A stretch of DNA of 34,645 bases, from positions 1 through 34,645 of the forward strand of contig JAUVES010000002.1 in NCBI GenBank assembly GCA_030594675.1, read 5' to 3'. The notes under the pieces were generated by a model. The model was not told the DNA's origin. It made no database searches and was given only the letters and a program-made list of their open reading frames with translations. Origin of the DNA: Candidatus Nanohaloarchaea archaeon (GTDB taxonomy: Archaea; EX4484-52; GLR71). Of this stretch, positions 7,490 to 24,233 are shown piece after piece (positions within the stretch are counted from its first letter, which is position 1; the number at the start of each line of letters is the position of its first letter). Position numbers and translations under genes: made by a program.

Positions 7490-10400
7490 CTATTTCTCCC
7501 AAACGCCAATCAGATGCTTGTTGTTCTCGTCTTCGCCCCAATTATGCACAACAACCATATGTTGTCCTTCGCCCATTTTCTCCTTGTTGTTGAAGTTTAT
7601 GTTGTTGTATTCAAGCCCTGTTTGTATCCTGTATATCTTGTCAATCCCGAAACCGAAGCTTGGGTTTGGCATCTTTTCTATTTCTCCTGACTGGATGTAT
7701 GGGATTCTTCGCTCTATTGAGCTTATATCTCCTTTAGAATACACGACATATGCTTTTGCGCTTTTGCCTTCTGCCAGAATTCCCTGTGTCAATGCCATGT
7801 AGTTTGCACCGGAAGATACATTGTTGAATGTCCCTCCTGCATGGATAAGCCCTGCAAGAGTTCCTCCTGCAAAGTTTGTTGCCACGTATTTTGCCGCTGT
7901 ATCTTCCACTGGCGAAAAGCCGGAACCTACAAATTTCACAACAACAAAGCCGGATGTTATTTCAAAATTCCTTGTTTTGCTGGCATAAACACCGAAGGTG
8001 TTGTTGCACCAAAACACAACACTGTGCGAGCCCCTTGAAATCCCAAAAACAAACCTGTAGTAGTCCAGTTGAGTGTCATTTGCCATTGTGATGTTTTGTG
8101 CCCCGTCCAAAGAGTATCCGCACCAAGAGACTCTCTGGTCCAAAGAGCTGTTGAACCATGTATCTCCCCCGTGCATCTCTGTTGGGGGGTATATAATTGT
8201 GATTTGCGGGGCAAGCGCGTCTACTTCAAAGTATATTGTGGTTGAATTCATGTTTCCTGCTGTGTCATTGGCGTATACTGTAATGTAGTGTGTGCTTTCA
8301 GACAAAATGGTGGTATTTGCATCAATAGCAGTTGTCCAAGCGCCCGTAATGTTTGTTCCCCCGTCAATTGCGTACCACATTGAATCCGGATATAGGTCGC
8401 TCTGTGTGGCGTTTATGTGGGGGGTGTTATCGTCTGTTGTTGTGCTTGTTGGCTCAAAGATTGTTATTGTTGGTTTTGTTATGTCAACTGTGAAGTATTT
8501 GGTTGTCGAGTTCATGTTTCCTAAAGTATCGTTGCAGAAGAATGTAACATTATGGGAACCTTCGCTGACGATTGACAGATTGTTCCAATTGCCTGAACTG
8601 TTTGTCATTGTTACATTCGCTGTTCCATCCAATGAATAACCGCACCAATCACCGGCTTCGTCGAGTGTTATGTTGAACCAAGTCGATGTTGTATTGTATG
8701 ACTTGTTTTCCGGGGACTGTATTATTATTGTCGGTGGTGTTGAATCATCTGAAAGCACTGTAAAATTTGTCGTATTTTCAGCGTAAATTCCATTCGCATT
8801 CGTCAAATTGATTTTTACTGTGTGGATGCCTGCCGTCTGAGGTGCAATAAATGTGTAGTTATATCCGCCAGTAGAGTTCGTTACCGCAGCATTCTGTTCT
8901 GCGCCGACTGAAAGTATTGTTGGCTCGGGAACTGTGTATTTTCGGTTGTGCTCTGTATCAAACCCCTGTGTGTATGCTGAAGGTGTTGATGATTCTGAAA
9001 TTGAATAGGCACTTAAACGTATTCTACCATATCCTCCATTTCCGCCGGATTCGCCGCAACAAGCAACTGGCTGCCCAAGCCCATAAGATGTATTAGTAGT
9101 TAATGAAGAAATATTATTAGCTGTCATAAAAATACTTCCACCTGCACCGCCAGCCTGTCCTTCTCCGCCAGAAACCCAATCTCCGCCTTTGGCAGTAATA
9201 GAACCAGTAACCAACGAAGAATAAACCATAACTATGCCGCCGCCAGCGCCGCCAAAAGCAGTTGGTCCTCCATTACTTCCACCTCCACCTCCGGAACCTA
9301 AGAATGTGGTTGAAAGATCTGAAGAACCATATGTTGTTCCGCCCCGCCCCCTATATTCACTAACACTCTGTGCCGTCCCATCACTGCCCGTAGTTCCATG
9401 ACCTCCACCGCCCCCCCCGGCACGGTCATTTCTCGGACTTGAAATCTGCTGTCCGCCTCCGCCTCCGCCTAAATTAACGAATCTGTTTGCAGTGCCTTTG
9501 CCTTGATAGCTTTCACCTTGTATGCCTACGGCATTTCCAGGCCAACTTCCCCAAGTTCCACCAACACCCCCTCTATATCCTTTTGCAGTGACATTGATAG
9601 TTCCCTGAATGTTGACTATTCCGTTCGCCCTGAAAACCACGATTCCTCCTTTATATCCATCCCATGCCGGTGCTGTTATGCTTGCCCAGGAATCGACAGT
9701 CACACTAGTGTATTGGGGAACACGGACAACCTGCGTTACTGTAGATGTTGTCGAATCAAATGTGCCCGAAGTATAATTGTTTTTTAATGAGGTATCAAGA
9801 GTTAGAGTCGTTGTTCCCCCGCCAGAATCTATCTTTTTGAATTCGTATGTTCCGGCTGCACCGCCAGAACTGTTTTGCATTTGTATTATTAGAATTTCGT
9901 CCCCATCTGAAAAAGCGGTTCCGCTATTGACTGCTATTATATTGTCTCCTGTGTTTTCGTTTCCAGTTAAATAAGTATAAGTATTTATTACTGTGTTTGC
10001 ATAGGAAACGGTTAATGGTCCGCTGGAGCCATCACCATAAAAATCCATCACATTGAAATAATCGCTTAAGCTTGGAGCTTCAGGATTTCCATAATACATA
10101 TACAATGTCATATTGCCGTTATCCGCGATAGACGGAACTTTCACCCAAATCAAGGCATTGTTTGCAGTCCAGTTTTCAATCCAGAACGAGATATTCTGCT
10201 CTATGCCGCTTATTGTGTTAAGTGAGGTAAATCTTGTGTCATTGCCGTTAGAATTTGCCTTTGTGAAGTTGAAATTTAACGATGTTAGATTTACAAGAAC
10301 CTGATAATCTGTTTGTTCTGTCGTCGAGCCGTTTATTATGATTGCCTTACGGTATGGCCACAATGCCTGTGACTCGCCTGCTGGAGTGTAATTGCCGGGG

Positions 10401-13400
10401 TTTATAACATTGACAAGTTGCCCGTCCAAAAAAATATTAATGCTGTTATTCACAATATTAGTATTGTCCGGCTGAAGCATTGCCTGCCCAAAAACAGTTA
10501 CATTTTCGCCAGAGTTTACGATTAATGGTGTAAGAGTTTCGGTTATTTCTATTTGTTTTACCGCAAATGTTGTATTTATTATTGTTGCTGTGTTAAATCC
10601 GTCGGTCAAATTAGCATAGAATGAAACATTATATTGCCCCAAAGCCAGGCTTGAGAATGTATCATCATACCATGTTCCGCCAGAAACATCGCCCGAGAGA
10701 AAATAAATATAAGACTCTGACGAGTTTGAAACATTTGTCCAGACCTGTGAAATATTAACTGTTGGGTATTTGATGTTGCTTAAAGGAATATTCACAGAAA
10801 TATTGACCGTCTCACCAACATTCACGCTCGAAGTGCCTGTATTTACACCTTTTGCGTTCGGGCTTTGCAAATTAATTATTACTGTGAAATTCGTTTCATT
10901 TGAGCCAATAATGTTATTCGAATCAGTGAGATTGACTTTCAATGTATAATTGCCAACAATTACCGGAGCAATAAATGTGTAGCTATATCCGCCGGTAGAA
11001 TTTGTGATTATGGCGTTTTGCTCCGCGCCGACTAAAATTACGGTTGGCTCGATTGATGTGTATTTTCGAACGCGGACATCATCATAATACCCGGAAGAAC
11101 ATCTTCCAATCAAATGCACATTTATAAAATCCAGATTTGCTATTGCTGCATTTGTCATTTCCCCTCTTAATGTTGTAGCATCTACGGTGTCAAAATACCA
11201 TTTGATATTCGTTCCACTAACAATTGTTTTCGCATGATGCCAAGTATTAGCAGGAAAATTCCCTGCATCACTTGTCCAGCCAATAGAACTACCACCCTCT
11301 GTAACTCCGAATCGAGTATACATAACAGCATGAGGTTGTGTGTCTACCTCAAATTTCACAAAATTATTTGAATCTTCAAATAGGTAACTATAAGGTTGAT
11401 TGCCGGCAGCGACTCTACCTTGAAACCAATAATCAAAAACAAGACTGTGGGTGGATGTAAAATTATTAGAAATAGCGCGCTCTGATTCCGAAACATCGCA
11501 GGAATCCAGACCCTGGACTTTCATTGAATAACTTCCACCGCGTACATAAGTAGAATCAATTACTCCTTTACCAACTTGCTGCCAGGCATTTAATGTTCCG
11601 CCCTCAAAATCATCAAAGAACTTAAATGTTGCAGTACCGTTGCTTGAGGATGAAGCAGAAGGGTTCCCGTAATACATATATAATGTCGTATTGCCGTTAT
11701 CCGCGATAGACGGAACTTTCACCCAAATCAAGGCATTGTTTGCAGTCCATTTTTCAATCCAGAACGAGATATTCTGCTCTATGCCGCTTATTGTGTTAAG
11801 TGAGGTAAATCTTGTGTCATTGCCGTCAGAATTTGCCTTTAGGAAGTTGAAATTTAACGATGTTAGAGTTACAAGAACCTGATAATCTGTTTGTTCTGTC
11901 GTCGAGCCGTTTATCGTGATTGCCTTACGATATGGCCACAATGCCTGTGATTCGCCTGCTGGAGTGTAATTGCCGGGGTTTATAACGCTTACAGCCTGAC
12001 CGTCTAAAAACAGATTCATATTGTTGTTTGCAACCGGAGTGCCGTCCGCTGTATATGTCGCATGACCAATGACTGTGACTGAGTCTCCTGGGATTACAAG
12101 CGTTTGGGTTAATGATTCAGTTAATATTATGTTGGTACTTGTAATTGTCCTCGTCTCGGTCTGGTTCACATTCCCTGCCAAATCCTGTGCGTAGGCAGTG
12201 TAGGTGTAGGTACCGTCTTCCAGGTCAGTGAAGTTGTGGTACAATCTGTAGAGTCCGGTGTTGTAGGAGGCGTTGATTTCTTCGGGGGAGAGGGCACGGT
12301 TCCAGATGCGGACTTCGTCTATGGTGCCGTTGAAGCATGTCGATGACCCACATTGCCAATATTCATCACGACCAATTTTTGTAGTTACGGGTGCAATATT
12401 GATATTTCCTGTAAGAGAATATGGAAAATCACGAGTATTTTCTGCCCCATTAATATATACTCGCATATAAGAACCATCATAACTAGCCACAATATGATAC
12501 CAATTTCCAACTAAAAAAGAATCACTATTCGATATACCACCATTCCAATCACTACCATCGGTAGATATTCTCCATTCGACATTATCGGATGATGCCCCTC
12601 TTGCTAACATCCAACCATAGTTACCGCCGCCAGAATGTTTAGATGCAACCCTTAAATTATTGTCCGCATTTGCTTTCACCCACGCCTCAATAGTAATCGC
12701 ATCAGTGATATTCAAACTTACATCATTCCCGCAATCCACATAATCATTCATACCATCAAACCTAAGGGCTTTGCCGAATTTCCCGCTTGTCGTCCAGCCA
12801 GAGCAGTTGCCTGTGCAGTTGTCTAATCCGGGGTTCATGTTGGTTAGGGTGCCGTTGTTACCGTAGGTTGACCAGTCTCTTGCGAAGGTGTCGTTCTCGC
12901 CGGCTTCAAGGTTGAACCTCCACCAGCCGACCAAAGAGTTGTTCCAGTCGATGAAGGCGGTGATGTTATTGGTGTCGTTTGCTGTGACATTGATGTATGT
13001 GTAATCGTTGCTTGTGGTGTTGCCGTCGTCAGGGGTGGGCGGGACGAAGTAGATGTCGGGGTTTGTTGTATCAATAGTTATGGTTCTTGTGTCAGTCTGG
13101 TTCACATTCCCTGCCAGATCCTGTGCGTAGGCTGTGTAGGTGTATGTTCCTTCTGCGAGGTTGGTGAAGTTTGTTTCTAATCTGTATAGCCCTGTATTGT
13201 AGGAAGCGTTGATCTCTTGGGGGGTTAGGACACGGTTGTAGATTTTTACCTCGTCGATGGTGCCGTTGAAATGTTCATCGCCGCCTCCTGCATTAACACC
13301 AATATCAAAGTATCCGTTAGAAAGTGTCTCTATTTGGTTATTATAGTTACAACTTGCATTTAATATCCCATTTACATATACTTTCATATTATCTGAAGCC

Positions 13401-16400: not shown

Positions 16401-19400
16401 TCAAACAATAATGATTTCCCAAACATTCCTGTTGTATAGTCAGGACAAATCGTTCCAGAACAGGTCCCATTGTTTCCGTAACTCGACCAATCCTTGAAGA
16501 ACGTAGAGTTCTCCCCTGTTTCTTCATTGAATCTCCACCAACCGACCAAAGAGTTGTTCCAGTCAATAAAAGCTGTTAGATTATTTGGCGAGCCGGTATC
16601 AGATATAGAAACATTGACATAAGTATGGTTGGTTAATATTAATGTGCTGTTATCTTCTGTCGGCGGCACAAATGTTATGTTCGGCTGTGTGGCGTCATAT
16701 GTGAACCAGAATGCTATTGAGTTCTGGTTGTCTACACTATCGTTGCAGGTGATATTCACATCGTATCTTCCTTCTGTCAAGACTGAATCGTTTGTAAAGC
16801 TGAACGGACTTGTTGTATACTGAGCTGGATATTCAGAGAGATTTGTCCATATTCGTGATATTCCGCTGTTGTCTGTGCATGTTCCGTTAAAGTATGGTAC
16901 ATAACTGAAATATGTGTTGTTTTCTGACGAATCAAGTGTTATTGTCGGAAGAAGCGTATCTATTGTCACAAAACTGTAGATATCGCTTGCATTCAAGTTA
17001 TGGCTTGTGTCATTCGCATATACTTTCCACTTGATAGTTGCTCCGACTGTTGAATTCACTTTTTTCGTCACATTGCTCCAACTCTCGTTTACCGGTGCAT
17101 TTGGAAACTGAACCCAAGTATCATTAAAAAATTCCTGCTCGCTTTCAATCCTGACCCAAACATCAGTATAATCAATCTGGTCATATAGGCTTGAAGAATT
17201 ATAATCAAAGTATTTTCCTTTAATCCTTACATTCCTGTTCGCTGCATTGGACCAGGCATTTGCAATAGTTGGATTTTGCGTTGATTTCGAGAAGTTACCG
17301 GTACCAATTATGCTCATGTTCCCTATCCCAATCCATTCAGAACCAGTGTACATCTCTAGCCATAAGTCCGGATTGTTATTTCCATTGTTTGCTGAACCTG
17401 AATTATTATAATAGGACACATTTATTGTTACTGTAATATTCATTTGCTCTAACAGGTCTCCTGTCAGTATGTTATCATAGGTTACATAGTATTTGTCTGC
17501 CTCGGTATCCGGATATTCATCTGAGATAAACTTGATCTCATCTATTATTCCCTTATCTGCCCCTTCTGTTAGGCTTCCGTCTTTTACATAGAACCAGGTA
17601 AAGAAGTGATGTCCGGCAAATATTGTATATGTTCTCTTTTGCCATGCCACCGTGCCGGAGATAAGCCCAGTACCTGACCCCCATGTACATCCTCCCTCTC
17701 CATAATTCTTATCTATGCAAAAGCCAAAGTAATCAAAACCTGATTCAGAACTTACATTCCACCAGAAACTGATCTCTCCTGTAGTAGGGTAAAACATATT
17801 ATTTGTTTTAATCCAAACATCCTGACTATCATTGATTAATGCATTGCTTTCTGCTGCATAAGCACCGCTGTATCCCGGCGCTGTTGACTGCCATGCCGGG
17901 TTAATATCTCCACCCATGCTCCAATCAAGCGGTGGTATTGCCCCGTCATCAAATGTCACACTATCATTTAGCTTAAGTTTTCCTTTATACTGCCTTTCCT
18001 CGGTTTCCAGGTCATTTGTTTGGTTGAGATATGTTTGGTTTACTCCATTGCACCATGAAAAAATGTAGCCTGATACATTTCCCTGCGTTGTTGCATTAAG
18101 CATGTCATGCCATTTCAACCTGAACTCTATTGGTGTTCCTGCTTCAGTTGAGTTCGTTGAATTCAAGGAATATGTTGGTGCTGTTGTATCCACTAACTCT
18201 ACCATTACCTGTGTATTTCCATCCAGAGATATTGTAAAGGATATTTTTCCATCTGAATCGGTCTGGAGTTCCTGTGATGTAGATGTCGCATCTGTAGTGT
18301 TTGTGATTAGGTAAGAAGTGCTTGTCCGCAACCCTGTGACATTATAAGTTACATTTATTCCCTGGGTCGAGTTCGTGTCGTTCCACATCATTTGGATTTC
18401 CGTCCAGTTTGAAAGTGTCCTGTTCAATGAGCTTGCTGCAGAAACGCTGGTCTTAAGCCAAAGGTCTCCTCCTGTTTCATTGTTGTAGACGAACCAGCTT
18501 GTGTTGTCGTAAAAGTATATTTTTCTTAGTGCTGTAAAGTTTGTGTTTACAAACTTGTTTGTGGCACCCGCATCCCGCAGGTAATAGTCATAACCCTGTT
18601 TTGATATTATAGAGCCGCCTGTTATGTTGTTTGAAATGGCTAAGTAAATATGTACACCATACGATGAAGTGTTTTCGGTCACAACATTATTGTCTGCTAT
18701 GGTATTTGAATAGCAGTCTTCTCCTGTCAAATAGATGCCTTTGGAGCTGGTGTTTGATGTCGTGATGTTGTTGTCTGATACTATATTGTAGCGGCCGTTA
18801 TCAATCTGGAAGGCTCTTGTATTGTTGCCTGTTGTTGTAATAATATTGCCTGAGATGTTATTGTAATCGCTGTATTCATCTGCATAGAAAGCGGATACCA
18901 AAATGGCGCGAAGAGAACCCGATGATGTTGTCGCTATTGTGTTATCGCTTATTGTATTTACGTCTGATGCGTCGAAATCCATAGCCAAGCCCCCCCCTGT
19001 ATTCGTAATGGTGTTATTCAAAATTGTGTTATAGTGACCGTACCATAACTCTATAGTAGCGGAACTGTTAGTGGTCGTGAGATTATTATCGCTGATGACA
19101 TTTGTTCTAGAGTTATATAGTAACAAACTCTGCCATTTTGATATGATAGAATTATATGATATAGTGGTATAGTAACCTTCCTCAAAAAAAATGCCAATAT
19201 AAGGTGATGTGATTATATTATTCGAGATAATGTTGCTGTGTGATTGATAAAAATAAATGCAATATTCTGCCGAAATATTATTGTTCAATATGTTGTTAAC
19301 GTTGCTCCATCCAGAAAGATAAACACCATAGCCGTCATCACCTGATGCTGTAATATTATTATTTGATATAGTATTATAATTACAGGATGATGAATACATA

Positions 19401-22400
19401 CCAATAGCATAACCATCTTCGCCTTCGGTTTTGAGTGTGTTGTTGGCAATTACATTGTAACTGCTTGATAAAACAAGATTGATTGCATCAGTACCGATAC
19501 CTTTCGCTACAATAGTGTTGTTTGAGGCGGTGTTTAAATTGCTTGATGACTTAAAACGTATTCCGCAACTCCATTGTCCCAATGTTGTAATACTGTTATT
19601 TGTTATATTGCTATTTTCCGTCTCTAATGTATAAATCGCATACGCATTTGAAGATGTTCCTCCCTGGACAATGTTCAGGTTCTTGATTGTGATGTTGTCA
19701 TAGCCTCCGGAGTCATATATTGCATAGCCAACTGCAGATTGCGAATAGTTTATCGTATAGCCATCACCGTCAAGAGTTATATTATCAGCAGCAATCGTAA
19801 AACAAGTACCTGTCGATGAGACATTATTCAATAGCTTATAATAACCGTTTTCTACTGATAGTGTCTGGCAAGAGACCACACCATAAGGAAGTGTACTATT
19901 CACTGTAAAATACATCATATCTGTTGAATTCATATTCCCGAAAGTGTCATTGCAGTAAAAGGTAACATTGTGAGACCCTTCACTAACTGTTGTCAGGTTG
20001 TTCCAGTTGCCTGAGGAGTATGTCATTGTTGCGTTTGCCACACCATCCAGAGAATAGCCGCACCACGACCCCTCCTCATTCAGTGTGGCATTGAACCAGA
20101 TAGACTGTGTGTAGTATGTTTCATTTTCCGGAGACTGCGAAGTAACTATAATATTTGGCAGCGAACCGACCTTTACCTGCACAAAATCAACTTCACAACC
20201 TTCCCCGCTACCCATGGTATCGCCTTCTGACATGAGTACAAGCTGCTTGTTTCCGCCAACTATATTAGAAATGCCATCTGTATAAACTACATTCGCAGTA
20301 ACATACCCTGCACCGAAATCAGCATCTGTAGCATAGAATCGCTCCCATGATGATGAGCTATAATTCCATATGATTGCAGCGCAGTCCTCACCTGCTTTAT
20401 CTCCTGTAGAACGGTGCTTCATCGATATATAGCCCCACTCTATCAAATCAGCACCCAGGTCAGTTGTAAAATTGAACCTGAAAAATGGCTCATCATTTGA
20501 TGTGCCGCTTGTTGTGTTGGCAGGCTGGTTATCATCTGAAGACAGCCATGTGTATTCCTGTAAGCTTACTAATGAACCTGTCCAGCCGTCTCCGCTTGCT
20601 GGCGGCTGTAAAAGCCCGCCCTGGGTCTCATCCTTGTATGCCTTGTTGCCTGAAGTGTCAGAAAAGTTGTAGTAAAAAACACGCTGCACAGATGAGGCCT
20701 TAACCACTGATATTTCAGTGTTTCCATTAAGGAGAATAGTAAATGCAGAAAGAGCTCCATTAGAATCTGTAACCAGCGTGTAAGAGTTTGTCTGGCCGCT
20801 CCCTAATGTGTTATAGACCTTGTATATTGTGGTTGGTGACAGGCCTTCAAGAGTGTACTCTGTTGTTATTCCGGATGTCGAATTTGTATCATTCCATTTT
20901 ACTTCTGATTCAGACCATGTGACAAGAGTCCTGTTTATTAAGCTTGCTGCCGAAACCTTTGTCTTGAGCCAGATATTGCCGTCAGTTTCGTTGTTGTAGA
21001 TGAACTGATAAGTTGCGCCATTGATGTAGATGCTTCTTTGTGCGGTGAAATTTGTGTTTCTGAAATTATTTGGAGTGTCATAAAGATAATAGTCGTAACT
21101 TTGCAGGGACCTGATTGACCCGCCTGTGAAATTATTTGAACTTCCAGTTACCATATTAACGCCGTAAGTCTGGGCACCTGTTCCCAATATGCTATTATTT
21201 ATCAAAACATTGTCGTATGAACCTCCATTAAAATAAGTAGCATCACTTAGGTCGCCTGTCGATACTATGTTGTTGTTTATGATAATGTTCCAATCGGCAG
21301 CTTCAAATACTATGCCGTCACCGACAGCGGTGATATTGTTTCCAGAGGCATTTACATTATATGCTGAATCAAGATATAGTCCTGATCCTGATGATGTGAT
21401 TGAGTTATTTGAAACCACCGTAAAAATCCAATTTAAATTAATGTATATGCCAATACTAGAGTCATAAGTAGTAATATTATTTTTAGTTATATTATTTCTA
21501 TACGATCCAAAATCATAAATTGCATGGGCATATTTTCCGTAAGTGATTATAGTATTATTTGTTGTGCTTGTATTTTCGGCAACAATATCTATACCTCTGC
21601 CCCAATCTCCATATGTCGTGATGGTGTTATTTGATATCAGGTTCCTGTAGTTGAATGGGGCCTGGATTCTGATGCCATAGCTGTAATTCCCTATTGTCGT
21701 AATGTTGTTGTTGGTGAATATGCTGTCTTCTGTCCCTTTTGCAATGATTGCATATGAAGAATCATTCGCAAATCCCTGCACGAGATTCAGGTTCTTTACA
21801 GTGAGGTTGTCATAGCCTGCCGTATTGTTTATCCCGTAGCCAACAACTGACTGTGAGTAGTTTATAGTATACCCTTGGCCATCGATGGTGATGTTGTCTG
21901 CGGCTATCGTGAAGCAGGTTCCGGAGGAGGAGACATTGCCTACTAATTTGTATGTTCCGTTTTCTATTGTTAGATTCCTGCATGTATCTACATCATACAG
22001 GGATGCTTCTATTAATAAAAGACCTGTGTAATTTGTTACCCCCCCGCAATCGTTTTCAGTATGGCTCACAATTGGGTGTATTGATACCCGGCTCCCCGAA
22101 TATCCTGAAATTCTCGGAAAATATGATATGCTATCATCCGGACATCCTGTACAAGCATCATCTTTAACTATTCCACTCCACGAATATTCTGTCCCATTTT
22201 CAACAAAGCCCATTCTATACACATTAATCGGCGCTCCTGCTGCAAAAGGTTTTGTATCTGCCTGTCCAATATAAACAGGACTTCCACTAATATTTACATC
22301 TGTTCCTCCAGCACTACCACAGACATAATCATAAAACATGAAATAAACATAACCTGACTTTGTTGCATTCCATGTTATGTTTACATCATAAACCATGTAA

Positions 22401-22528
22401 TACCCTTCGGATATAAAAGTTACATTGTCTAATACGTCAGCATCAATATCATCAACATCTGCACTTGCTGTTGAACATAAAAAAATAAATGAAAACAACA
22501 ACAAAACAAAAAAACTCAATACTTTCAT
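7490..22528 (-). CDS. Giant secreted mosaic surface protein, 5,012 aa (beta-helix, Ig-like, LamG, beta-propeller, DUF2341, Gly-rich modules)
   Basis: Uninterrupted 15,039-nt ORF with ATG at 22528 and a Sec-type signal peptide. Recognisable modules are listed as separate features below. N-x-S/T sequons are very dense. There is no C-terminal TM helix, PGF-CTERM-like or other anchor motif that I recognise. All plus-strand ORFs inside it look like antisense artefacts. Confidence 0.9.
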   Translation of the reverse strand: MKVLSFFVLLLFSFIFLCSTASADVDDIDADVLDNVTFISEGYYMVYDVNITWNATKSGYVYFMFYDYVCGSAGGTDVNISGSPVYIGQADTKPFAAGAPINVYRMGFVENGTEYSWSGIVKDDACTGCPDDSISYFPRISGYSGSRVSIHPIVSHTENDCGGVTNYTGLLLIEASLYDVDTCRNLTIENGTYKLVGNVSSSGTCFTIAADNITIDGQGYTINYSQSVVGYGINNTAGYDNLTVKNLNLVQGFANDSSYAIIAKGTEDSIFTNNNITTIGNYSYGIRIQAPFNYRNLISNNTITTYGDWGRGIDIVAENTSTTNNTIITYGKYAHAIYDFGSYRNNITKNNITTYDSSIGIYINLNWIFTVVSNNSITSSGSGLYLDSAYNVNASGNNITAVGDGIVFEAADWNIIINNNIVSTGDLSDATYFNGGSYDNVLINNSILGTGAQTYGVNMVTGSSNNFTGGSIRSLQSYDYYLYDTPNNFRNTNFTAQRSIYINGATYQFIYNNETDGNIWLKTKVSAASLINRTLVTWSESEVKWNDTNSTSGITTEYTLEGLSPTTIYKVYNTLGSGQTNSYTLVTDSNGALSAFTILLNGNTEISVVKASSVQRVFYYNFSDTSGNKAYKDETQGGLLQPPASGDGWTGSLVSLQEYTWLSSDDNQPANTTSGTSNDEPFFRFNFTTDLGADLIEWGYISMKHRSTGDKAGEDCAAIIWNYSSSSWERFYATDADFGAGYVTANVVYTDGISNIVGGNKQLVLMSEGDTMGSGEGCEVDFVQVKVGSLPNIIVTSQSPENETYYTQSIWFNATLNEEGSWCGYSLDGVANATMTYSSGNWNNLTTVSEGSHNVTFYCNDTFGNMNSTDMMYFTVNSTLPYGVVSCQTLSVENGYYKLLNNVSSTGTCFTIAADNITLDGDGYTINYSQSAVGYAIYDSGGYDNITIKNLNIVQGGTSSNAYAIYTLETENSNITNNSITTLGQWSCGIRFKSSSNLNTASNNTIVAKGIGTDAINLVLSSSYNVIANNTLKTEGEDGYAIGMYSSSCNYNTISNNNITASGDDGYGVYLSGWSNVNNILNNNISAEYCIYFYQSHSNIISNNIITSPYIGIFFEEGYYTTISYNSIISKWQSLLLYNSRTNVISDNNLTTTNSSATIELWYGHYNTILNNTITNTGGGLAMDFDASDVNTISDNTIATTSSGSLRAILVSAFYADEYSDYNNISGNIITTTGNNTRAFQIDNGRYNIVSDNNITTSNTSSKGIYLTGEDCYSNTIADNNVVTENTSSYGVHIYLAISNNITGGSIISKQGYDYYLRDAGATNKFVNTNFTALRKIYFYDNTSWFVYNNETGGDLWLKTSVSAASSLNRTLSNWTEIQMMWNDTNSTQGINVTYNVTGLRTSTSYLITNTTDATSTSQELQTDSDGKISFTISLDGNTQVMVELVDTTAPTYSLNSTNSTEAGTPIEFRLKWHDMLNATTQGNVSGYIFSWCNGVNQTYLNQTNDLETEERQYKGKLKLNDSVTFDDGAIPPLDWSMGGDINPAWQSTAPGYSGAYAAESNALINDSQDVWIKTNNMFYPTTGEISFWWNVSSESGFDYFGFCIDKNYGEGGCTWGSGTGLISGTVAWQKRTYTIFAGHHFFTWFYVKDGSLTEGADKGIIDEIKFISDEYPDTEADKYYVTYDNILTGDLLEQMNITVTINVSYYNNSGSANNGNNNPDLWLEMYTGSEWIGIGNMSIIGTGNFSKSTQNPTIANAWSNAANRNVRIKGKYFDYNSSSLYDQIDYTDVWVRIESEQEFFNDTWVQFPNAPVNESWSNVTKKVNSTVGATIKWKVYANDTSHNLNASDIYSFVTIDTLLPTITLDSSENNTYFSYVPYFNGTCTDNSGISRIWTNLSEYPAQYTTSPFSFTNDSVLTEGRYDVNITCNDSVDNQNSIAFWFTYDATQPNITFVPPTEDNSTLILTNHTYVNVSISDTGSPNNLTAFIDWNNSLVGWWRFNEETGENSTFFKDWSSYGNNGTCSGTICPDYTTGMFGKSLLFDGTNDYITIPDSNSLDLTNSFTIEGWFKPAETYSNISDYYQGLIDKGSYQLFLDKDGKLKFYLGSDSAKSWNALGSGMNDHVRSFAVWNGELYAGGYFTTAGGNPASKIAKWNGTGWSALGSGTNGAVFALAVWNGELYAGGYFWTAGGNTVDYIAKWNGTDWSPLGSGMGDGVHSLAVWDGELYAGGLFTTAGGNSADYIAKWNGTDWSALGSGVGNDVYSLAVWDGELYAGGDFITAGGNSADYIAKWNGTDWSALGSGVGNDVYSLAVWDGELYAGGWFTTAGGNSANYTAKWNGTDWSALGSGTSSDVFLLAVYNGELYAGGWFTTAGGSSANYTAKWNGTDWSPLGLGVTAFVNAFAVWNGELYVGGEFTTAGGNTANKTAKWSSGNEKVVSSATDSWSSDWKHFAITYDNSSLKMYIDSVLQSTQPASITPQVNTINLHIGDTYGSREGAYSGSGPEQFNGTIDEVRIHNRTLSPEEINASYNTGLYRVYHNFTNLSDGTYTYIAYAQDLAGNVNQTETRTLMIGDDTTYPQYSLNQTNSTEAGKDVLFSLYWEDNYALAGYIFSFDNGTGTFYNDSYAAMIGTESWSNVTKTVNSSIGSTIRWIVYANDTAGNMNTSEIFSFIITSSGDSTPPTITIESPENKSYNTQSIWFNATVADASGVDWCGYSLDGAENITMINSSGNWNNLSTVSEGSHNVTFSCNDTVGNMNSTTQYFTVDITQPFVEIILPENTTYPTTALDLNYTATDPYIDSVWYEYNSINTTLSGNTTFTAIDNQQSTLTLYANDTAGNQNQTSIAFTVDTIPPTIEFVPPTDTDNDYVNRNYSYVNVSVSDVLSPNNLTSFIDWNRSLVGWWRFNEETGENSTFFRDWSSWGNNGSCTGVNCSNYTDSGKFGKGMMFDGVNDYVRITDSSSLSPTDKISIEAWINPIENVMLGIVEKQNGSNNAYGFNYLNDYKLGFQINWGFPSVIACLSDTGSVNLNEWTHVVATYDLHLASDNMKVYVNGILNASCNYNNQIETLSNGYFDIGVNAGGGDEHFNGTIDEVKIYNRVLTPQEINASYNTGLYRLETNFTNLAEGTYTYTAYAQDLAGNVNQTDTRTITIDTTNPDIYFVPPTPDDGNTTSNDYTYINVTANDTNNITAFIDWNNSLVGWWRFNLEAGENDTFARDWSTYGNNGTLTNMNPGLDNCTGNCSGWTTSGKFGKALRFDGMNDYVDCGNDVSLNITDAITIEAWVKANADNNLRVASKHSGGGNYGWMLARGASSDNVEWRISTDGSDWNGGISNSDSFLVGNWYHIVASYDGSYMRVYINGAENTRDFPYSLTGNINIAPVTTKIGRDEYWQCGSSTCFNGTIDEVRIWNRALSPEEINASYNTGLYRLYHNFTDLEDGTYTYTAYAQDLAGNVNQTETRTITSTNIILTESLTQTLVIPGDSVTVIGHATYTADGTPVANNNMNLFLDGQAVSVINPGNYTPAGESQALWPYRKAITINGSTTEQTDYQVLVTLTSLNFNFLKANSDGNDTRFTSLNTISGIEQNISFWIEKWTANNALIWVKVPSIADNGNTTLYMYYGNPSASSSSNGTATFKFFDDFEGGTLNAWQQVGKGVIDSTYVRGGSYSMKVQGLDSCDVSESERAISNNFTSTHSLVFDYWFQGRVAAGNQPYSYLFEDSNNFVKFEVDTQPHAVMYTRFGVTEGGSSIGWTSDAGNFPANTWHHAKTIVSGTNIKWYFDTVDATTLRGEMTNAAIANLDFINVHLIGRCSSGYYDDVRVRKYTSIEPTVILVGAEQNAIITNSTGGYSYTFIAPVIVGNYTLKVNLTDSNNIIGSNETNFTVIINLQSPNAKGVNTGTSSVNVGETVNISVNIPLSNIKYPTVNISQVWTNVSNSSESYIYFLSGDVSGGTWYDDTFSSLALGQYNVSFYANLTDGFNTATIINTTFAVKQIEITETLTPLIVNSGENVTVFGQAMLQPDNTNIVNNSINIFLDGQLVNVINPGNYTPAGESQALWPYRKAIIINGSTTEQTDYQVLVNLTSLNFNFTKANSNGNDTRFTSLNTISGIEQNISFWIENWTANNALIWVKVPSIADNGNMTLYMYYGNPEAPSLSDYFNVMDFYGDGSSGPLTVSYANTVINTYTYLTGNENTGDNIIAVNSGTAFSDGDEILIIQMQNSSGGAAGTYEFKKIDSGGGTTTLTLDTSLKNNYTSGTFDSTTSTVTQVVRVPQYTSVTVDSWASITAPAWDGYKGGIVVFRANGIVNIQGTINVTAKGYRGGVGGTWGSWPGNAVGIQGESYQGKGTANRFVNLGGGGGGQQISSPRNDRAGGGGGGHGTTGSDGTAQSVSEYRGRGGTTYGSSDLSTTFLGSGGGGGSNGGPTAFGGAGGGIVMVYSSLVTGSITAKGGDWVSGGEGQAGGAGGSIFMTANNISSLTTNTSYGLGQPVACCGESGGNGGYGRIRLSAYSISESSTPSAYTQGFDTEHNRKYTVPEPTILSVGAEQNAAVTNSTGGYNYTFIAPQTAGIHTVKINLTNANGIYAENTTNFTVLSDDSTPPTIIIQSPENKSYNTTSTWFNITLDEAGDWCGYSLDGTANVTMTNSSGNWNNLSIVSEGSHNVTFFCNDTLGNMNSTTKYFTVDITKPTITIFEPTSTTTDDNTPHINATQSDLYPDSMWYAIDGGTNITGAWTTAIDANTTILSESTHYITVYANDTAGNMNSTTIYFEVDALAPQITIIYPPTEMHGGDTWFNSSLDQRVSWCGYSLDGAQNITMANDTQLDYYRFVFGISRGSHSVVFWCNNTFGVYASKTRNFEITSGFVVVKFVGSGFSPVEDTAAKYVATNFAGGTLAGLIHAGGTFNNVSSGANYMALTQGILAEGKSAKAYVVYSKGDISSIERRIPYIQSGEIEKMPNPSFGFGIDKIYRIQTGLEYNNINFNNKEKMGEGQHMVVVHNWGEDENNKHLIGVWEK
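9010..9590 (-). other. Polyglycine-rich domain
   Basis: KGYRGGVGGTWGSWPGNAVGIQGESYQGKGTANRFVNLGGGGGGQQISSPRNDRAGGGGGGHGTTGSDG...LGSGGGGGSNGGPTAFGGAGGGIVMVYSS...GGEGQAGGAGGSIFMT...CCGESGGNGGYGRIRLSAY. On the plus strand it appears as C-rich runs (ccgccgcc, ccaccgcccccccc). Confidence 0.6.
10093..10408 (-). repeat. DUF2341 cassette, copy B
   Basis: Same as copy A. The plus-strand artefact ORFs 10113-10304 and 11691-11882 translate almost identically, which independently shows the duplication. Confidence 0.85.
11671..11986 (-). repeat. DUF2341 cassette, copy A (316-nt near-identical intragenic repeat)
   Basis: Encodes INPGNYTPAGESQALWPYRKAITINGSTTEQTDYQVLV...DTRFTSLNTISGIEQNISFWIEKWTANNALIWVKVPSIADNGNTTLYMYYGN. 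It matches 10093-10408 with about 11 mismatches in 316 nt (hand alignment) at an in-frame offset of 1,578 nt. Confidence 0.85.
12250..12950 (-). other. LamG/ConA-like domain 3
   Basis: LVGWWRFNLEAGENDTFARDWSTYGNNGTLTN...FGKALRFDGMNDYVDCGND...ITIEAWVKA...WYHIVASYDGSYMRVYINGA...FNGTIDEVRIWNRALSPEEINASYNTG. Confidence 0.7.
13190..13850 (-). other. LamG/ConA-like domain 2
   Basis: LVGWWRFNEETGENSTFFRDWSSWGNNGSCTG...FGKGMMFDGVNDYVRITD...ISIEAWINP...WTHVVATYD...MKVYVNG...FNGTIDEVKIYNRVLTPQEINASYNTG. Confidence 0.7.
14930..16560 (-). other. LamG/ConA-like domain 1, interrupted by the propeller insertion
   Basis: The N-part is LVGWWRFNEETGENSTFFKDWSSYGNNGTCSG...FGKSLLFDGTNDYITIPDSNSLDL...FTIEGWFKP. 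The C-part is WKHFAITYDNSSLKMYIDSV...FNGTIDEVRIHNRTLSPEEINASYNTG. Both align to the uninterrupted domains 2 and 3. Confidence 0.7.
15239..16195 (-). repeat. Seven tandem 138-nt (46-aa) coding repeats = predicted 7-bladed beta-propeller
   Basis: The consensus unit is KWNGTDWSALGSGxxxxVxxLAVWxGELYAGGxFTTAGGNxAxYIA, seven times. Units at 15573-15710 and 15711-15848 differ at about 10 of 138 positions in my hand alignment. Confidence 0.8.
18420..19875 (-). other. Right-handed parallel beta-helix module 2 (longer paralogue of module 1)
   Basis: CQTLSVENGYYKLLNNVSSTGTCFTIAADNITLDGDGYTINYSQSAVGYAI..., followed by more turns than module 1. It ends with the same cap, NTNFTALRKIYF...NNETGGDLWLKTSVSAAS. 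Confidence 0.7.
20930..21985 (-). other. Right-handed parallel beta-helix (PbH1/NosD-like) module 1
   Basis: CRNLTIENGTYKLVGNVSSSGTCFTIAADNITIDGQGYTINYSQSVVGYGI..., followed by many ~22-aa N-N-I/T-rich turns (NNNITT, NNTITT, KNNITT, NNSITS, GNNITA). It ends with NTNFTAQRSIYI...NNETDGNIWLKTKVSAAS. Confidence 0.7.
22460..22528 (-). other. Sec-type signal peptide of the giant protein
   Basis: MKVLSFFVLLLFSFIFLCSTASA|DV: one Lys, a hydrophobic core and an AxA-type cleavage motif. It is not a class III (pilin) signal. Confidence 0.7.
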
Positions 22529-22660: not shown

Positions 22661-23128
22661 TTAGTTTACTTCCGTCCCTTCAATTGTAAACGATATAGTC
22701 GGGCATTCTGTGGGGATTATACGCACAGCAGATATAGTGTCGATTGTGTCTGTGTCAATCTGCAATGACACAGGCAGCTCATCACCCGCATATAGCGTGT
22801 ATTTGTTTGTGAACATCGTAGAATTTGAATTTGCGGCTATTACGCGGATTTTCTCAACAGTCAGTGTGCGCGTTCCTGTGTTTTTAAGGTTGAATTTAAG
22901 CTTTTCTGTGCCTGATGAATTAAAATATATGTTTCTTGCATCTATACTTGCATATACACAACCCGGATCTGAATTGTTAACGGCATTTTCTGTTTGTGTT
23001 TTTGCAGTCTGGCTCATCCAAGAGGATACAAAACCTGCAATCGCTATGGTGAATGCAATCATAAGAATACTTGCAAGTATTGGAGAAATTCCTTTTTTTT
23101 TGCAAAATGAAACCATACGGAAAACCAT
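22661..23128 (-). CDS. Archaeal type IV pilin-like protein (155 aa)
   Basis: The N-terminus MVFRMVSFCKKKG|ISPILASILMIAFTIAIAGFVSSW is a class III signal: a basic stretch, Gly, then a ~20-aa hydrophobic helix. ATG 23128 overlaps the upstream TAA (TAATG). The ATG at 23116 is an alternative start. Confidence 0.8.
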   Translation of the reverse strand: MVFRMVSFCKKKGISPILASILMIAFTIAIAGFVSSWMSQTAKTQTENAVNNSDPGCVYASIDARNIYFNSSGTEKLKFNLKNTGTRTLTVEKIRVIAANSNSTMFTNKYTLYAGDELPVSLQIDTDTIDTISAVRIIPTECPTISFTIEGTEVN

Positions 23129-23634
23129 TAAATCGGACCGTTTAAGTCTAAATTCTCACTTCCGGCAAGTGAGGACCAGCCGCTTACCGGCTTCCAGACG
23201 GTTGTTGATACAGCTTCGCAGCGGGTTGTAAATTTTATCTGTGTTAATTCCCCGCCGCCTGCAAGTGGAATAGAAAGATTCAGGTTAACATCCACACCGC
23301 TTTCCTTTGGTAGTGTGCCATTCATTTTATATGGCTTTATCGGCGTGTCGTCGACCCATACCTGAAAACCGGTAAGTGCCACATCAACAGAACCGGTATT
23401 AACGATATAATCCTGAAAAATCTTGGTTGACATGTTAATGCGTGCAAAATCGGGATCCGCACGGATGCTTTGATAAACACAATCTATTTTTTCCTCAAAT
23501 ACTTGTGTTTTTTCTTTTTGGTCTGTTGTAAAATTAGATATCCATGTAGTGAGAATGGCTGCAACCGCCATAGTAAATGCAATCAAAAGAACTGCCGCAA
23601 TTAAGGGGCTTATACCTTTTCTTGTTAGTCTCAT
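23128..23634 (-). CDS. Archaeal type IV pilin-like protein (168 aa)
   Basis: I moved the start to ATG 23634, giving MRLTRKG|ISPLIAAVLLIAFTMAVAAILTTWISNF. The longer track ORF adds 14 unlikely residues. Confidence 0.8.
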   Translation of the reverse strand: MRLTRKGISPLIAAVLLIAFTMAVAAILTTWISNFTTDQKEKTQVFEEKIDCVYQSIRADPDFARINMSTKIFQDYIVNTGSVDVALTGFQVWVDDTPIKPYKMNGTLPKESGVDVNLNLSIPLAGGGELTQIKFTTRCEAVSTTVWKPVSGWSSLAGSENLDLNGPI

Positions 23635-23700
23635 AATAATCACTCCGTGTATTAAAGTATATATGACCATACCCAATATATAAAGATTATTGATAATCGG

Positions 23701-24174
23701 CTAACTGCTTCTACAGCCATTTGTTGTGTTTTCGAGATTATTGTTAAATCGTATTATTACATTTTTACATACTGAGACAACATCTGCAAGCAAAAAGTCA
23801 TCACAATTATTGAATATATTGCATGTATTGTTTTTCGCGGTTGCAAAATCACCAACATCAAGCATTGAATCATCAAAATCAAGGTTGCATGGATCGTAAT
23901 TTTTATTATATATTGATGCTTCTGTGAGGTTTATCGAGACATCTCCTGTGTTTTGTATGGTTATTGCGGCGCTTTCTCCAAATACAATACCCACAGAAAT
24001 GATTTCTGCCCGCGCTGTTGAGCATATATTTCTTGTATCGTCCATATGGCCTGTTTTTTCCATGTTTGTATTTGCAAGCGGCGAGACCCAATTCATGACC
24101 ATAACAGAAATGCCTATGCTGAATGTTATCAACAGGATTGCAGCAATTAAAGGGGATACGGCTTTTTTTTTCAT
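23701..24174 (-). CDS. Archaeal type IV pilin-like protein (157 aa)
   Basis: MKKKA|VSPLIAAILLITFSIGISVMVMNWVSP, with a Cys-rich C-terminal domain. Confidence 0.8.
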   Translation of the reverse strand: MKKKAVSPLIAAILLITFSIGISVMVMNWVSPLANTNMEKTGHMDDTRNICSTARAEIISVGIVFGESAAITIQNTGDVSINLTEASIYNKNYDPCNLDFDDSMLDVGDFATAKNNTCNIFNNCDDFLLADVVSVCKNVIIRFNNNLENTTNGCRSS

Positions 24175-24227: not shown

Positions 24228-24233
24228 GTGGAT

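What the first reader, a model, noticed from the sequence alone, without database searches (positions are those of the whole stretch)
7490..22528. 15-kb single ORF: 5,012-aa Sec-secreted mosaic protein with no recognisable anchor
The reading frame is open for 15,039 nt with a clear Sec signal peptide. This differs from the class III signals of its neighbours. The architecture from N- to C-terminus is: an unknown ~160-aa head, beta-helix 1, an unknown jelly-roll-like region, an Ig-like module, beta-helix 2, more Ig-like modules and a MAM/jelly-roll-like region (VTFDDGAIPPLDWSMGG...ISFWWNVSSESGFDYFGFCID...IIDEIKFI). Then come three LamG domains, two DUF2341 cassettes, the Gly-rich domain, further SPENKSY...WCGYSLDG Ig-like modules and an unknown ~170-aa tail. 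I see no TM helix, sortase-type signal or S-layer-type anchor. How the protein stays on the cell, or whether it is released or held by the filament, is an open question.
Basis: partly seen in the sequence, partly recalled or inferred. Interest (0 to 1): 0.7.

Follow-up and report, generated by a model that had tools for sequence, protein, structure and literature searches.

The report
Giant pilus-linked adhesin of a DPANN archaeon
A real 5,012-residue secreted surface protein of a tiny symbiotic-type archaeon (Aenigmatarchaeota) ends in a previously undescribed 150-residue domain that recurs in archaeal pilus gene clusters, so the giant is probably held on the neighbouring pilus rather than lacking an anchor.

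Summary
Window 7490-22528 (minus strand) is one uninterrupted 5,012-codon ORF with a Sec-type signal peptide and no other hydrophobic segment. It has no archaeosortase or S-layer-type signal.

The domain list is mostly right: two beta-helices, three LamG, two DUF2341, a Gly-rich domain and many Ig-like modules. The 'MAM-like' call could not be confirmed.

The 'unknown tail' is a member of a domain family absent from Pfam and NCBIfam, with no PDB match by sequence or fold.
- There are 86 cluster representatives, and the domain always ends 3-12 (mostly 7-10) residues before the C-terminus.
- About a third to 40% are stand-alone proteins of about 170-220 aa, most with a readable Sec-type signal peptide. 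The rest carry up to 2,300 aa upstream of the domain.
- In the syntenic locus of a related genome, a 177-aa stand-alone member sits exactly where the giant sits, after two TadC genes and the pilins.
- Elsewhere members precede four class-III-signal, pilin-like genes.

Best reading: a PilY1-like, Sec-exported adhesin docked on a DPANN type IV pilus through a new C-terminal module. Docking is inferred, not shown. I class it as a new variant of a known kind.

The parts
7490..22528 (-). Giant ORF, 5,012 aa plus stop
22460..22528 (-). Sec-type signal peptide, aa 1-23 (MKVLSFFVLLLFSFIFLCSTASA). Cleavage after ASA is inferred.
   Evidence: Read from the sequence. It is the only hydrophobic 19-mer above 1.6.
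22034..22459 (-). N-terminal head, aa 24-165, no family assigned
   Evidence: No Pfam hit at E<=10. No PDB sequence hit. No tblastn hit in related loci.
20699..22033 (-). Beta-helix module 1 with its C-terminal extension, aa ~166-610; paralogue of module 2
   Evidence: Pfam Beta_helix at aa 334-469. Self-BLAST 35-62% identity to aa 860-1445.
20174..20698 (-). Unassigned region, aa 611-785
   Evidence: No significant Pfam or PDB hit
19883..20173 (-). Ig-like module (SPENETY...WCGYSLDG), aa 786-882. It recurs at aa ~2680-2772, 4593-4686 and 4770-4855.
   Evidence: Self-BLAST; motif positions
18194..19882 (-). Beta-helix module 2 (NosD-like), aa 883-1445
   Evidence: Pfam NosD 80 bits and Beta_helix 54 bits, around aa 1080-1204
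16949..18193 (-). Unassigned region, aa 1446-1860.
   Evidence: No Pfam or PDB support. Single-sequence AF2 gave pLDDT 32, which is uninformative.
14924..16576 (-). LamG domain 1 (aa 1985-2535), split by an inserted 7-blade DUF5122 beta-propeller (aa 2093-2440; window 15209-16252)
   Evidence: Pfam Laminin_G_3 and DUF5122. 138-nt repeats at 66-79% identity. Seven KW(NG/SS) repeats.
13874..14923 (-). Block of Ig-like modules (Big_13/Big_3_3, OmpL47-type), aa 2536-2885
13184..13861 (-). LamG domain 2, aa 2890-3115
   Evidence: Pfam Laminin_G_3
12248..12961 (-). LamG domain 3, aa 3190-3427
   Evidence: Pfam Laminin_G_3, 176 bits combined with LamG2
11069..12232 (-). DUF2341 cassette 1 (aa 3433-3650), followed by a weak fourth LamG-like domain (aa 3689-3820)
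   Evidence: Pfam DUF2341 85.8 bits; Laminin_G_3 22.5 bits, below the cutoff
10013..10657 (-). DUF2341 cassette 2, aa 3958-4172; ~80% aa and 93% nt identical to cassette 1 over its core
   Evidence: Pfam DUF2341 61.5 bits
8984..10039 (-). Gly-rich domain, aa 4164-4515, similar to the N-terminal domain of myxobacterial AgmC
   Evidence: NCBIfam NF047640, E 4e-32, 111.7 bits, below the cutoff of 275
7976..8752 (-). Three Ig-like modules, aa 4593-4851
   Evidence: Self-BLAST; Big_13
7493..7975 (-). Conserved C-terminal domain (aa 4852-5012) of a family with no database annotation. Motif NPSFGF; proposed pilus-docking module.
   Evidence: Family search and alignments. AF2 pLDDT 86. No Pfam, NCBIfam or PDB match.
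22661..24704 (-). Four class III-signal pilin genes immediately upstream: 155 aa (22661-23128), 182 aa (23128-23676), 157 aa (23701-24174), 156 aa (24234-24704)
   Evidence: Pfam Pilin_N hits just below the gathering score for three of the four genes, none for the 157-aa gene; N-termini read directly for all four
24835..26827 (-). Two TadC/FlaJ-type (T2SSF) pilus platform membrane proteins
   Evidence: Pfam T2SSF, 59.7 and 67 bits
29559..32774 (-). 1,071-aa class III-signal protein with 2 DUF2341 + LamG (pilin-adhesin fusion)

Best explanation
The gene encodes a very large, heavily N-glycosylated extracellular adhesin of a Candidatus Aenigmatarchaeota (DPANN) archaeon.

Proposed mechanism:
- It is exported by the Sec pathway and its signal peptide is removed (inferred).
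- About 4,830 residues of carbohydrate- and ligand-binding modules form the working part. These are two NosD-type beta-helices, three to four LamG domains (one with an inserted 7-blade propeller), two DUF2341, an AgmC_N-like Gly-rich domain and ten or more Ig-like spacers.
- The last ~150 residues are a conserved docking module. I infer that it binds the type IV pilus encoded immediately upstream, most likely its minor-pilin or tip complex. The giant would then be displayed on the filament.

This is the way bacterial PilY1/PilC work: Sec-exported non-pilins held on the pilus tip by their conserved C-terminal part. Stand-alone members of the family (about 170-220 aa) would be the 'head-less' version of the same component.

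Shown: the ORF, the domains, the family, its strictly C-terminal position and its genomic association with pilus genes. Inferred: cleavage, glycosylation, physical docking, tip location and host or substrate adhesion.
For: 1. The tail belongs to a real family. There are 86 representatives at E<=1e-3 among 1.84 billion proteins, 12 of them at E<=1e-10. In every one the domain ends 3-12 residues (7-10 in nearly all) before the C-terminus. A free, fixed C-terminal position is typical of docking or sorting modules.

2. Roughly a third to 40% of members are stand-alone proteins of about 170-220 aa, most with a readable Sec-type (not class III) signal peptide. The others carry 100-2,200 aa of LamG, Ig or FG-GAP domains upstream. 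The pattern is a variable head on a constant tail, as in PilY1.

3. Synteny. L043 reads T2SSE, T2SSF, T2SSF, three class III pilins, then the stand-alone member P0007 (177 aa, 39% identical), then a DUF2341 protein. That is the same slot as the giant in the window.

4. L056 reads: stand-alone member, a large (~2,700 aa, split) member, then four proteins with [KR]G + hydrophobic N-termini (403, 221, 197 and 240 aa), then a pilin 59% identical to the pilin adjacent to the giant. L052 (the MAG that also carries a 93%-identical TadC gene) has the same set. L042 and L045 repeat the pair of a member followed by a ~430-aa pilin-like protein. In L054 a T2SSE ATPase is directly upstream of a 1,681-aa member.

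5. Seven of 37 TadC-anchored DPANN loci carry a member within 10 kb. Seven of about nine informative contexts reached from family members carry pilus or pilin-like genes.

6. DUF2341 large proteins in archaeal T4P loci were already predicted to be PilY1-like tip adhesins (PMC4858521). PilC/PilY1 are retained on the tip through their C-terminal end (PMC13533445).

7. Sequons are enriched 2.1-fold, z about 14.
Against: - No physical or structural evidence of docking exists. A complex prediction with pilins could not be run.
- In the monomer model the last strand is packed in the domain's own sheet, so a PilY1-style donated terminal strand is not evident.
- The tail has no similarity to the PilY1 C-terminal propeller or to any solved fold.
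- The association is not universal. L005 has the TadC genes and a pilin related to the giant's neighbour but no family member within 10 kb. L055 and L050 show no clear pilus gene nearby.
- No pilus ATPase lies in the window.
- The TadC-anchored loci are a biased sample.
Confidence: 0.5

Rival explanations
1. The C-terminal domain is a cell-envelope anchor. It would bind the S-layer, a membrane lipid or glycan, or a membrane protein, independently of the pilus. The giant would be a cell-body adhesin or sheath protein. Its position next to pilus genes would only reflect clustering of surface-protein genes.
For: The domain is strictly C-terminal, as for many wall- or S-layer-binding modules. Other Aenigmatarchaeota T4P loci carry large proteins anchored by a C-terminal TM helix (L007, L009, L010, L016), so cell-body surface proteins do sit in these loci. 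Some family members lack visible pilus genes nearby.
Against: Stand-alone ~130-aa mature proteins consisting only of an anchor make little sense. The repeated gene order with four pilin-like genes, and the exact slot replacement in L043, point to the pilus. There is no similarity to SLH, PGF-CTERM, FlaF/FlaG or any known anchor.
Confidence: 0.2
2. The protein is cargo rather than a passenger. The neighbouring type IV filament machine would act like a type II secretion pseudopilus, and the tail would be the recognition platform. The giant would be pushed through the S-layer and released, for example as a polysaccharide-degrading or host-wall-attacking enzyme array. Alternatively it is simply released after Sec export.
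For: There is no covalent or membrane anchor. NosD/pectate-lyase-type beta-helices and LamG domains are common in secreted glycan-active proteins. T2SS cargo is recognised through a folded platform without stable retention (discussion in PMC13533445).
Against: Archaea lack an outer membrane, so there is no known need for a T2SS. Ten or more Ig-like spacer modules and DUF2341 are typical of stalked adhesins. Head-less stand-alone members would be cargo with no function.
Confidence: 0.12
3. The stand-alone family members polymerise into a separate, non-type-IV fibre by donor-strand-type assembly. The giant would be its tip or terminal subunit, as TafC is in haloarchaeal Tat-fimbriae or FimH in chaperone-usher pili.
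For: The family combines many small Sec-secreted single-domain members with a few carrying large heads. The most conserved segment (NPSFGF loop, aa 102-125 of the tail) is coil at lower confidence in the monomer model, as expected for an intermolecular interface. Genomes can encode both a stand-alone and a fused member side by side (L052, L056).
Against: Usually only one stand-alone copy is seen per locus, always amid class III pilin-like genes. No dedicated assembly gene other than T4P genes recurs. There is no fold similarity to TasA, TafA, Fim or thread subunits in the PDB.
Confidence: 0.1
4. The ORF is an assembly artefact: a chimera or repeat-collapse product of several shorter genes.
For: The source is a short-read metagenome. 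Related contigs are fragmented, and the homologous gene in L056 is split into two frames. Internal paralogous modules are up to 93% identical over 300 nt.
Against: There are 15,039 nt without a stop or N, and one frame throughout. No perfect repeats were found. GC3 is compatible with the neighbours. The C-terminal order LamG-Ig-Ig-tail is reproduced in independent partial proteins P0001, P0002, P0004 and P0006. An ORF of more than 1,805 aa with 45-54% identical modules exists in another MAG (L040).
Confidence: 0.03

Closest known systems
Bacterial PilY1/PilC type IV pilus tip adhesins
   Same: Large non-pilin proteins with a Sec-type signal. They are encoded among (minor) pilin genes and have a variable N-terminal adhesion part with a conserved C-terminal part that holds them on the pilus (PMC7541494, PMC13533445). 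The giant and its family show the same logic: a variable head of 0 to ~4,850 aa, a constant strictly C-terminal domain, and neighbours that are four pilin-like genes.
   Different: The C-terminal domain is not the PilY1/PilC beta-propeller. There is no Pfam hit and no structural match to any PDB entry. The host is an archaeon with a Tad/archaeal-type machine. The size is about four times larger. Docking is untested.
DUF2341-containing large proteins of archaeal type IV pilus loci (arCOG03508 and others; Makarova, Koonin & Albers 2016, PMC4858521)
   Same: Large DUF2341 proteins encoded in archaeal T4P loci and predicted to be tip adhesins by analogy with PilY1. The giant has two DUF2341 domains and sits in such a locus.
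   Different: That paper does not describe the C-terminal domain found here. arCOG membership could not be tested. The 1,071-aa neighbour, which carries a class III signal, is a closer match to the pilin-fused type.
TafC, the LamG-bearing tip adhesin of haloarchaeal Tat-fimbriae (PMC11821415)
   Same: An archaeal filament-associated adhesin with a laminin-G-like domain pointing outward. NCBIfam TafC matches the giant's LamG region at E 4.5e-27.
   Different: The score of 95 bits is far below the family cutoff of 410, so only the LamG domain is shared. TafC is Tat-exported and joins the fibre through an N-terminal donor strand, not through a C-terminal domain.
Giant multi-domain surface proteins of DPANN archaea and CPR bacteria, e.g. 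SPEARE proteins of Nanohaloarchaeum (recalled from my own knowledge, not checked here)
   Same: Very large secreted mosaic proteins in small-genome episymbionts, thought to mediate host contact.
   Different: They have different domain sets. No link to a pilus-locus C-terminal module has been reported, as far as I know.

Membership tests
PilY1/PilC tip adhesins | C-terminal PilY1/PilC beta-propeller domain (Pfam Neisseria_PilC) | tested here: not met
   No Pfam hit on the tail even at E<=10. Foldseek against the PDB gave best E 0.33 and TM 0.34.
PilY1/PilC tip adhesins | Sec-type (not prepilin) signal peptide on a large non-pilin protein | tested here: met
   The N-terminus was read directly. 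There is no Pilin_N or TIGR02537 hit, unlike the neighbours. No dedicated signal-peptide predictor was available.
PilY1/PilC tip adhesins | Gene embedded in or next to a (minor) pilin operon of a type IV filament system | tested here: met
   Window order is TadC x2, pilin x4, giant. The same holds for family members in L043, L042, L052, L056 and L054.
PilY1/PilC tip adhesins | [quoted passage not shown] | not testable with these tools
   Needs complex modelling or biochemistry. The monomer model shows the last strand packed in cis.
Archaeal T4P-associated DUF2341 large proteins (Makarova 2016) | DUF2341 domain present | tested here: met
   PF10102 at 85.8 and 61.5 bits against a cutoff of 23.4
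Archaeal T4P-associated DUF2341 large proteins (Makarova 2016) | Membership of arCOG03508 or related arCOGs | not testable with these tools
   No arCOG library was available
Archaeal type IV pilins / class III signal proteins | N-terminal [KR]G-type prepilin site followed by a long hydrophobic helix (Pilin_N / TIGR02537) | tested here: not met
   The giant starts MKVLSFF...ASA|D with no Pilin_N hit. The tail is not homologous to the pilins' globular domains (hhalign probability <0.3%).
C-terminally anchored archaeal surface proteins (TM anchor, PGF-CTERM/archaeosortase, S-layer type) | C-terminal TM helix or sorting tripartite signal | tested here: not met
   The C-terminus ...HLIGVWEK is hydrophilic, with a maximum C-terminal hydropathy of 1.08. 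NCBIfam on the last 336 aa gave only a weak OmpL47 Ig hit.
AgmC (myxobacterial adventurous gliding protein) | NF047640 AgmC_N at or above the curated cutoff | tested here: not met
   111.7 bits against a cutoff of 275. This is domain-level similarity only.
New C-terminal 'NPSFGF' domain family (defined here) | ~130-160-aa domain ending 3-12 (mostly 7-10) aa before the C-terminus, with the motif [NS]P[ST]F[GSA][FY] and an invariant Tyr and Gly downstream | tested here: met
   phmmer E down to 3.8e-51. Positions are and conserved columns.

The most novel reading that the evidence does not exclude
The tail defines a previously unrecognised, structurally new docking domain. Through it, DPANN archaea would mount interchangeable Sec-exported 'heads' (from nothing to about 4,850 aa) on the tip complex of their type IV pili. 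Together with a set of four pilin-like proteins it would form the archaeal functional counterpart of the bacterial PilY1 + minor-pilin priming complex. That would extend the 'licensing by a C-terminal adhesin module' principle to archaea.
Probability: 0.35. Interest if true: 0.75.

Novelty: new variant of a known kind. Interest (0 to 1): 0.55.

Why it matters
DPANN archaea are thought to live attached to host cells, and how they attach is largely unknown. Two things would follow if the conserved C-terminal domain is the handle that fixes giant adhesins to their pili.

- It gives a concrete, testable attachment apparatus: pilus, four minor-pilin-like proteins and an exchangeable adhesin.
- It gives a sequence marker for finding the adhesins of uncultured archaea. 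An HMM of the tail picks out proteins with very different heads.

It would also bear on the recent proposal that tip-complex licensing by a C-terminal module of a large adhesin is ancient in type IV filaments (PMC13533445). No archaeal example has been analysed so far.

The giant ORF itself is less surprising. Large mosaic LamG/beta-helix/DUF2341/Ig proteins are common in Aenigmatarchaeota and other DPANN.

Tried and rejected
- The word-indexed homologue search with the tail alone found nothing. The exhaustive HMMER search was needed.
- The profile search in the word-indexed database returned only 5 proteins.
With a 10-sequence alignment it gave only two short contigs.
- The tail was compared with Pfam, NCBIfam and PDB sequences singly, and all 61 alignment members were also compared with Pfam, NCBIfam and a PDB profile. 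Nothing matched.
- Foldseek of a confident tail model against the PDB and viral structures gave nothing below E 0.1.
- I considered whether the tail is a pilin globular domain without its helix. hhalign against all four neighbouring pilins gave probability <0.3%, so this is rejected.
- The 'MAM-like' region has no profile or PDB sequence support. Single-sequence AF2 gave pLDDT 32, so no fold search was attempted.
- The head (aa 24-165) and aa 611-785 have no hits anywhere.
- The giant itself could not be looked up on other contigs.
- I asked whether the pilin next to the giant is always paired with a family member. It is not: L005 has the pilin but no member nearby.
- I asked whether the downstream Hxs radical-SAM cluster is functionally linked. 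Family members elsewhere are not followed by Hxs genes.
Full report
**1. The observation**

The window contains a single ORF on the minus strand from 22528 (ATG) to 7490 (stop), 5,012 aa, with no ambiguous bases. No competing ORF inside it exceeds 128 aa.

Internal DNA repeats exist but are diverged. The propeller blades have a 138-nt period at 66-79% identity. The two DUF2341 cassettes are 93% identical over 300 nt. The LamG and Ig modules are 65-86% identical. Collapse or chimerism in a short-read assembly is therefore unlikely, though it is not excluded without long reads. GC3 of the gene (0.40) is near that of its neighbours (0.33-0.39).

The C-terminal order LamG-Ig-Ig-tail recurs in independent partial proteins from other samples: P0001, P0002, P0004 and P0006.

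**2. Organism and neighbourhood**

The adjacent TadC-like protein is 93-98% identical to proteins on contigs of two MAGs: 93% to one labelled Candidatus Aenigmatarchaeota and 98% to one labelled only 'archaeon'. Its more distant relatives are nearly all Aenigmatarchaeota or Woesearchaeota MAGs. The window is therefore DPANN archaeal DNA.

On the same strand, the gene order upstream to downstream is:
- a 1,071-aa class III-signal protein with two DUF2341 and a LamG (29559-32774);
- a coiled-coil gene on the opposite strand, and three tRNAs;
- two T2SSF/TadC genes (24835-26827);
- four class III pilins (22661-24704);
- the giant;
- a His-Xaa-Ser (Hxs) radical-SAM cluster (1901-7509).

No secretion ATPase lies in the window.

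**3. Anatomy of the giant**

The N-terminus MKVLSFFVLLLFSFIFLCSTASA|DVDD has Sec-type features. It lacks the [KR]G-hydrophobic helix of its neighbours. It is the only segment with TM-like hydropathy.

Profile searches and self-comparison give this map:

| aa | Assignment |
|---|---|
| 24-165 | Head, unassigned |
| 166-610 | Beta-helix module 1 |
| 611-785 | Unassigned |
| 786-882 | Ig-like |
| 883-1445 | NosD-like beta-helix module 2 |
| 1861-1960 | Ig-like |
| 2536-2885 | Ig block |
| 2890-3115 | LamG2 |
| 3190-3427 | LamG3 |
| 3433-3650 | DUF2341 cassette 1 |
| 3689-3820 | Weak LamG-like domain |
| 3958-4172 | DUF2341 cassette 2 |
| 4164-4515 | Gly-rich domain; matches AgmC_N at E 4e-32, below that model's cutoff |
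| 4593-4851 | Three Ig-like modules |
| 4852-5012 | Tail |

N-X-S/T sequons number 232 against 109 +/- 8.8 in 1,000 shuffles. That fits a heavily N-glycosylated archaeal surface protein.

The MAM label has no Pfam or PDB support. A single-sequence model of that stretch was uninformative, with pLDDT 32.

**4. The tail is a conserved domain family**

The tail has no hit in Pfam, NCBIfam or PDB sequences. An exhaustive HMMER search of 1.84 billion representatives found 86 proteins at E<=1e-3, the best at 3.8e-51.

In every one, the domain ends 3-12 residues (7-10 in nearly all) before the C-terminus. Roughly a third to 40% are stand-alone proteins of about 170-220 aa, most with a readable Sec-type signal peptide (e.g. 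MRVKIFFVSVLAVIFLLPQVSG|YNL). The rest are 250-2,329 aa with LamG, Ig or FG-GAP heads.

Conserved features are the motif [NS]P[ST]F[GSA][FY] and an invariant Tyr and Gly further on.

None of the 61 aligned members hits a Pfam or NCBIfam model. A profile of the alignment finds nothing in the PDB.

AlphaFold2 with this alignment gives a confident model (pLDDT 86, pTM 0.70). It has a beta-sheet-rich N-terminal half (strands to residue 81), two short helices (84-101), a conserved loop carrying NPSFGF (lower confidence, 71-81) and a final beta-hairpin. Foldseek finds no significant neighbour in the PDB (best E 0.33, TM 0.34) or among viral models. The tail is not homologous to the globular parts of the adjacent pilins.

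**5. Where the family is encoded**

- L043 (GCA_013138765.1) has T2SSE, T2SSF, T2SSF and three class III pilins. Next comes the 177-aa stand-alone member P0007 (39% identical to the tail), then a DUF2341 protein. P0007 sits exactly where the giant sits in the window.
- L056 carries a stand-alone member (177 aa), then a large gene ending in the domain. That gene is split into two frames, 3313-9807 and 9623-11395, about 2,700 aa in all.
- After it in L056 come four proteins of 403, 221, 197 and 240 aa that each start with [KR]G plus a hydrophobic stretch. Last is a 150-aa pilin 59% identical to the pilin next to the giant.
- L052 belongs to the MAG that also carries a 93%-identical TadC gene. 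It has a contig-truncated gene ending in a tail 84% identical to ours. It also has a stand-alone member (P0010) and the same four pilin-like genes.
- L042 and L045 repeat the pair of a member followed by a ~430-aa pilin-like protein. L042 also has two Pilin_N genes.
- In L054 a T2SSE ATPase directly precedes a 1,681-aa member.
- Seven of the 37 TadC-anchored loci have a member within 10 kb. Two of these are Woesearchaeota-like loci with proteins of roughly 1,000 aa or more (both cut by the contig end) ending in the domain.
- Exceptions exist. L005 has related pilins but no member nearby. L050 and L055 show no clear pilus gene.

**6. Interpretation**

Four features match the logic of bacterial PilY1/PilC:
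- a Sec-exported protein without a membrane anchor;
- a constant, strictly C-terminal domain;
- a head that varies from nothing to thousands of residues;
- a gene embedded among pilin and pilin-like genes.

PilY1/PilC are non-pilin adhesins that join a complex of four minor pilins and are held on the pilus tip through their C-terminal end (PMC7541494, PMC13533445). Makarova, Koonin and Albers had already proposed that large DUF2341 proteins in archaeal T4P loci are PilY1-like tip adhesins (PMC4858521).

I therefore favour the view that the giant is displayed on the neighbouring type IV pilus through its tail, and that the head-less family members are the minimal form of the same component.

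This is inference from comparative genomics. No interaction was modelled or measured. In the monomer model the terminal strand is packed in cis. The fold is unrelated to the PilY1 propeller. So the giant may work like a PilY1, but it is not a member of that family.

The rivals, with my confidence in each, are:
- a pilus-independent envelope-binding anchor (0.2);
- released or T2SS-like cargo (0.12);
- a separate fibre built from the small members (0.1);
- an assembly artefact (0.03).

**7. Novelty and score**

Giant mosaic LamG/beta-helix/DUF2341/Ig proteins are common in Aenigmatarchaeota and other DPANN, so the ORF alone is a large but ordinary member of a known kind. Two things appear new: the C-terminal domain family, and its tie to minor-pilin-like operons.

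I rate it as a new variant of a known kind, interest 0.55.

Noticed in passing
window 1901-7509 (minus strand): A His-Xaa-Ser (Hxs) radical-SAM cluster lies directly downstream of the giant. It has an HxsD-like gene (6895-7509) and a second, 85-aa ORF that looks HxsD-like by eye (not profile-tested) (5569-5826). It also has an HxsC4-like rSAM (5900-6898), HxsB (4107-5594, 428 bits against a cutoff of 370), a DUF483 protein (3099-4076) and an HxsC-like gene with TPR (1901-3109). No His-Xaa-Ser repeat precursor was found in any frame of the window.
   Followed up: partly
window 27025-27137 and 27145-27257 (+), 27469-27545 (+): Two 113-nt tRNA matches were found by Rfam only. Their length suggests intron-containing archaeal tRNAs, and ARAGORN missed them. 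A tRNA-Glu(CTC) lies next to them. The three sit where the syntenic locus L043 has the pilus ATPase gene.
   Followed up: no
window 29559-32774 (minus strand): A 1,071-aa protein has a genuine class III (prepilin-type) N-terminus fused to two DUF2341 domains and a LamG. This is a pilin-adhesin fusion in the same locus as the Sec-type giant. The locus therefore carries two adhesins with different predicted attachment modes.
   Followed up: partly
window 15209-16252 (giant aa 2093-2440): A seven-blade DUF5122 beta-propeller (46-aa repeats, 55-88% identical to each other) is inserted inside the first LamG domain. It splits that domain into aa 1985-2092 and 2441-2535.
   Followed up: partly
window 32771-34587 (minus strand): A 379-aa ORF starts KKG|FVYTMFTIVVVSSIF, which looks class III-like. 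An overlapping 241-aa ORF follows, and neither has a family hit. They may be large minor-pilin-like proteins comparable to the 403-437-aa proteins that follow tail-domain genes in L042, L045, L052 and L056. BLAST found no homology.
   Followed up: partly
window 27620-29551 (+): A 643-aa Lys/Glu-rich ORF, read as probable coiled coil but not tested, lies on the opposite strand in a region of strong positive AT skew. It has only weak Pfam hits.
   Followed up: no
L040 3153-3395 (GCA_030594585.1) and L041 (SRR18920791): An isolated 80-aa ORF is 85% identical to the last 72 residues of the giant's tail and has no upstream remainder of the domain. It looks like a gene fragment in a related genome. 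The same contig carries another ORF of more than 1,805 aa, with modules 45-54% identical to the giant, running off the contig end.
   Followed up: partly
L056 3313-11395 (JGI Ga0369713_1000486): The homologous large adhesin gene appears split into two overlapping frames (2,164 aa and 590 aa). A run of 100 N lies in the 8-kb stretch upstream of and overlapping the gene (L056 2001-10100; its exact position was not determined). This is either a frameshift, a scaffolding artefact or a real pseudogene.
   Followed up: no
L007, L009, L010, L016 (Aenigmatarchaeota T4P loci): Large proteins (723-1,352 aa) encoded upstream of the TadC genes end in a TM helix plus a basic tail, e.g. ...FALWQLAVLVILSTAFVYRQSIGKKRNST. 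This is an alternative, membrane-anchored class of big surface protein in sister loci.
   Followed up: no
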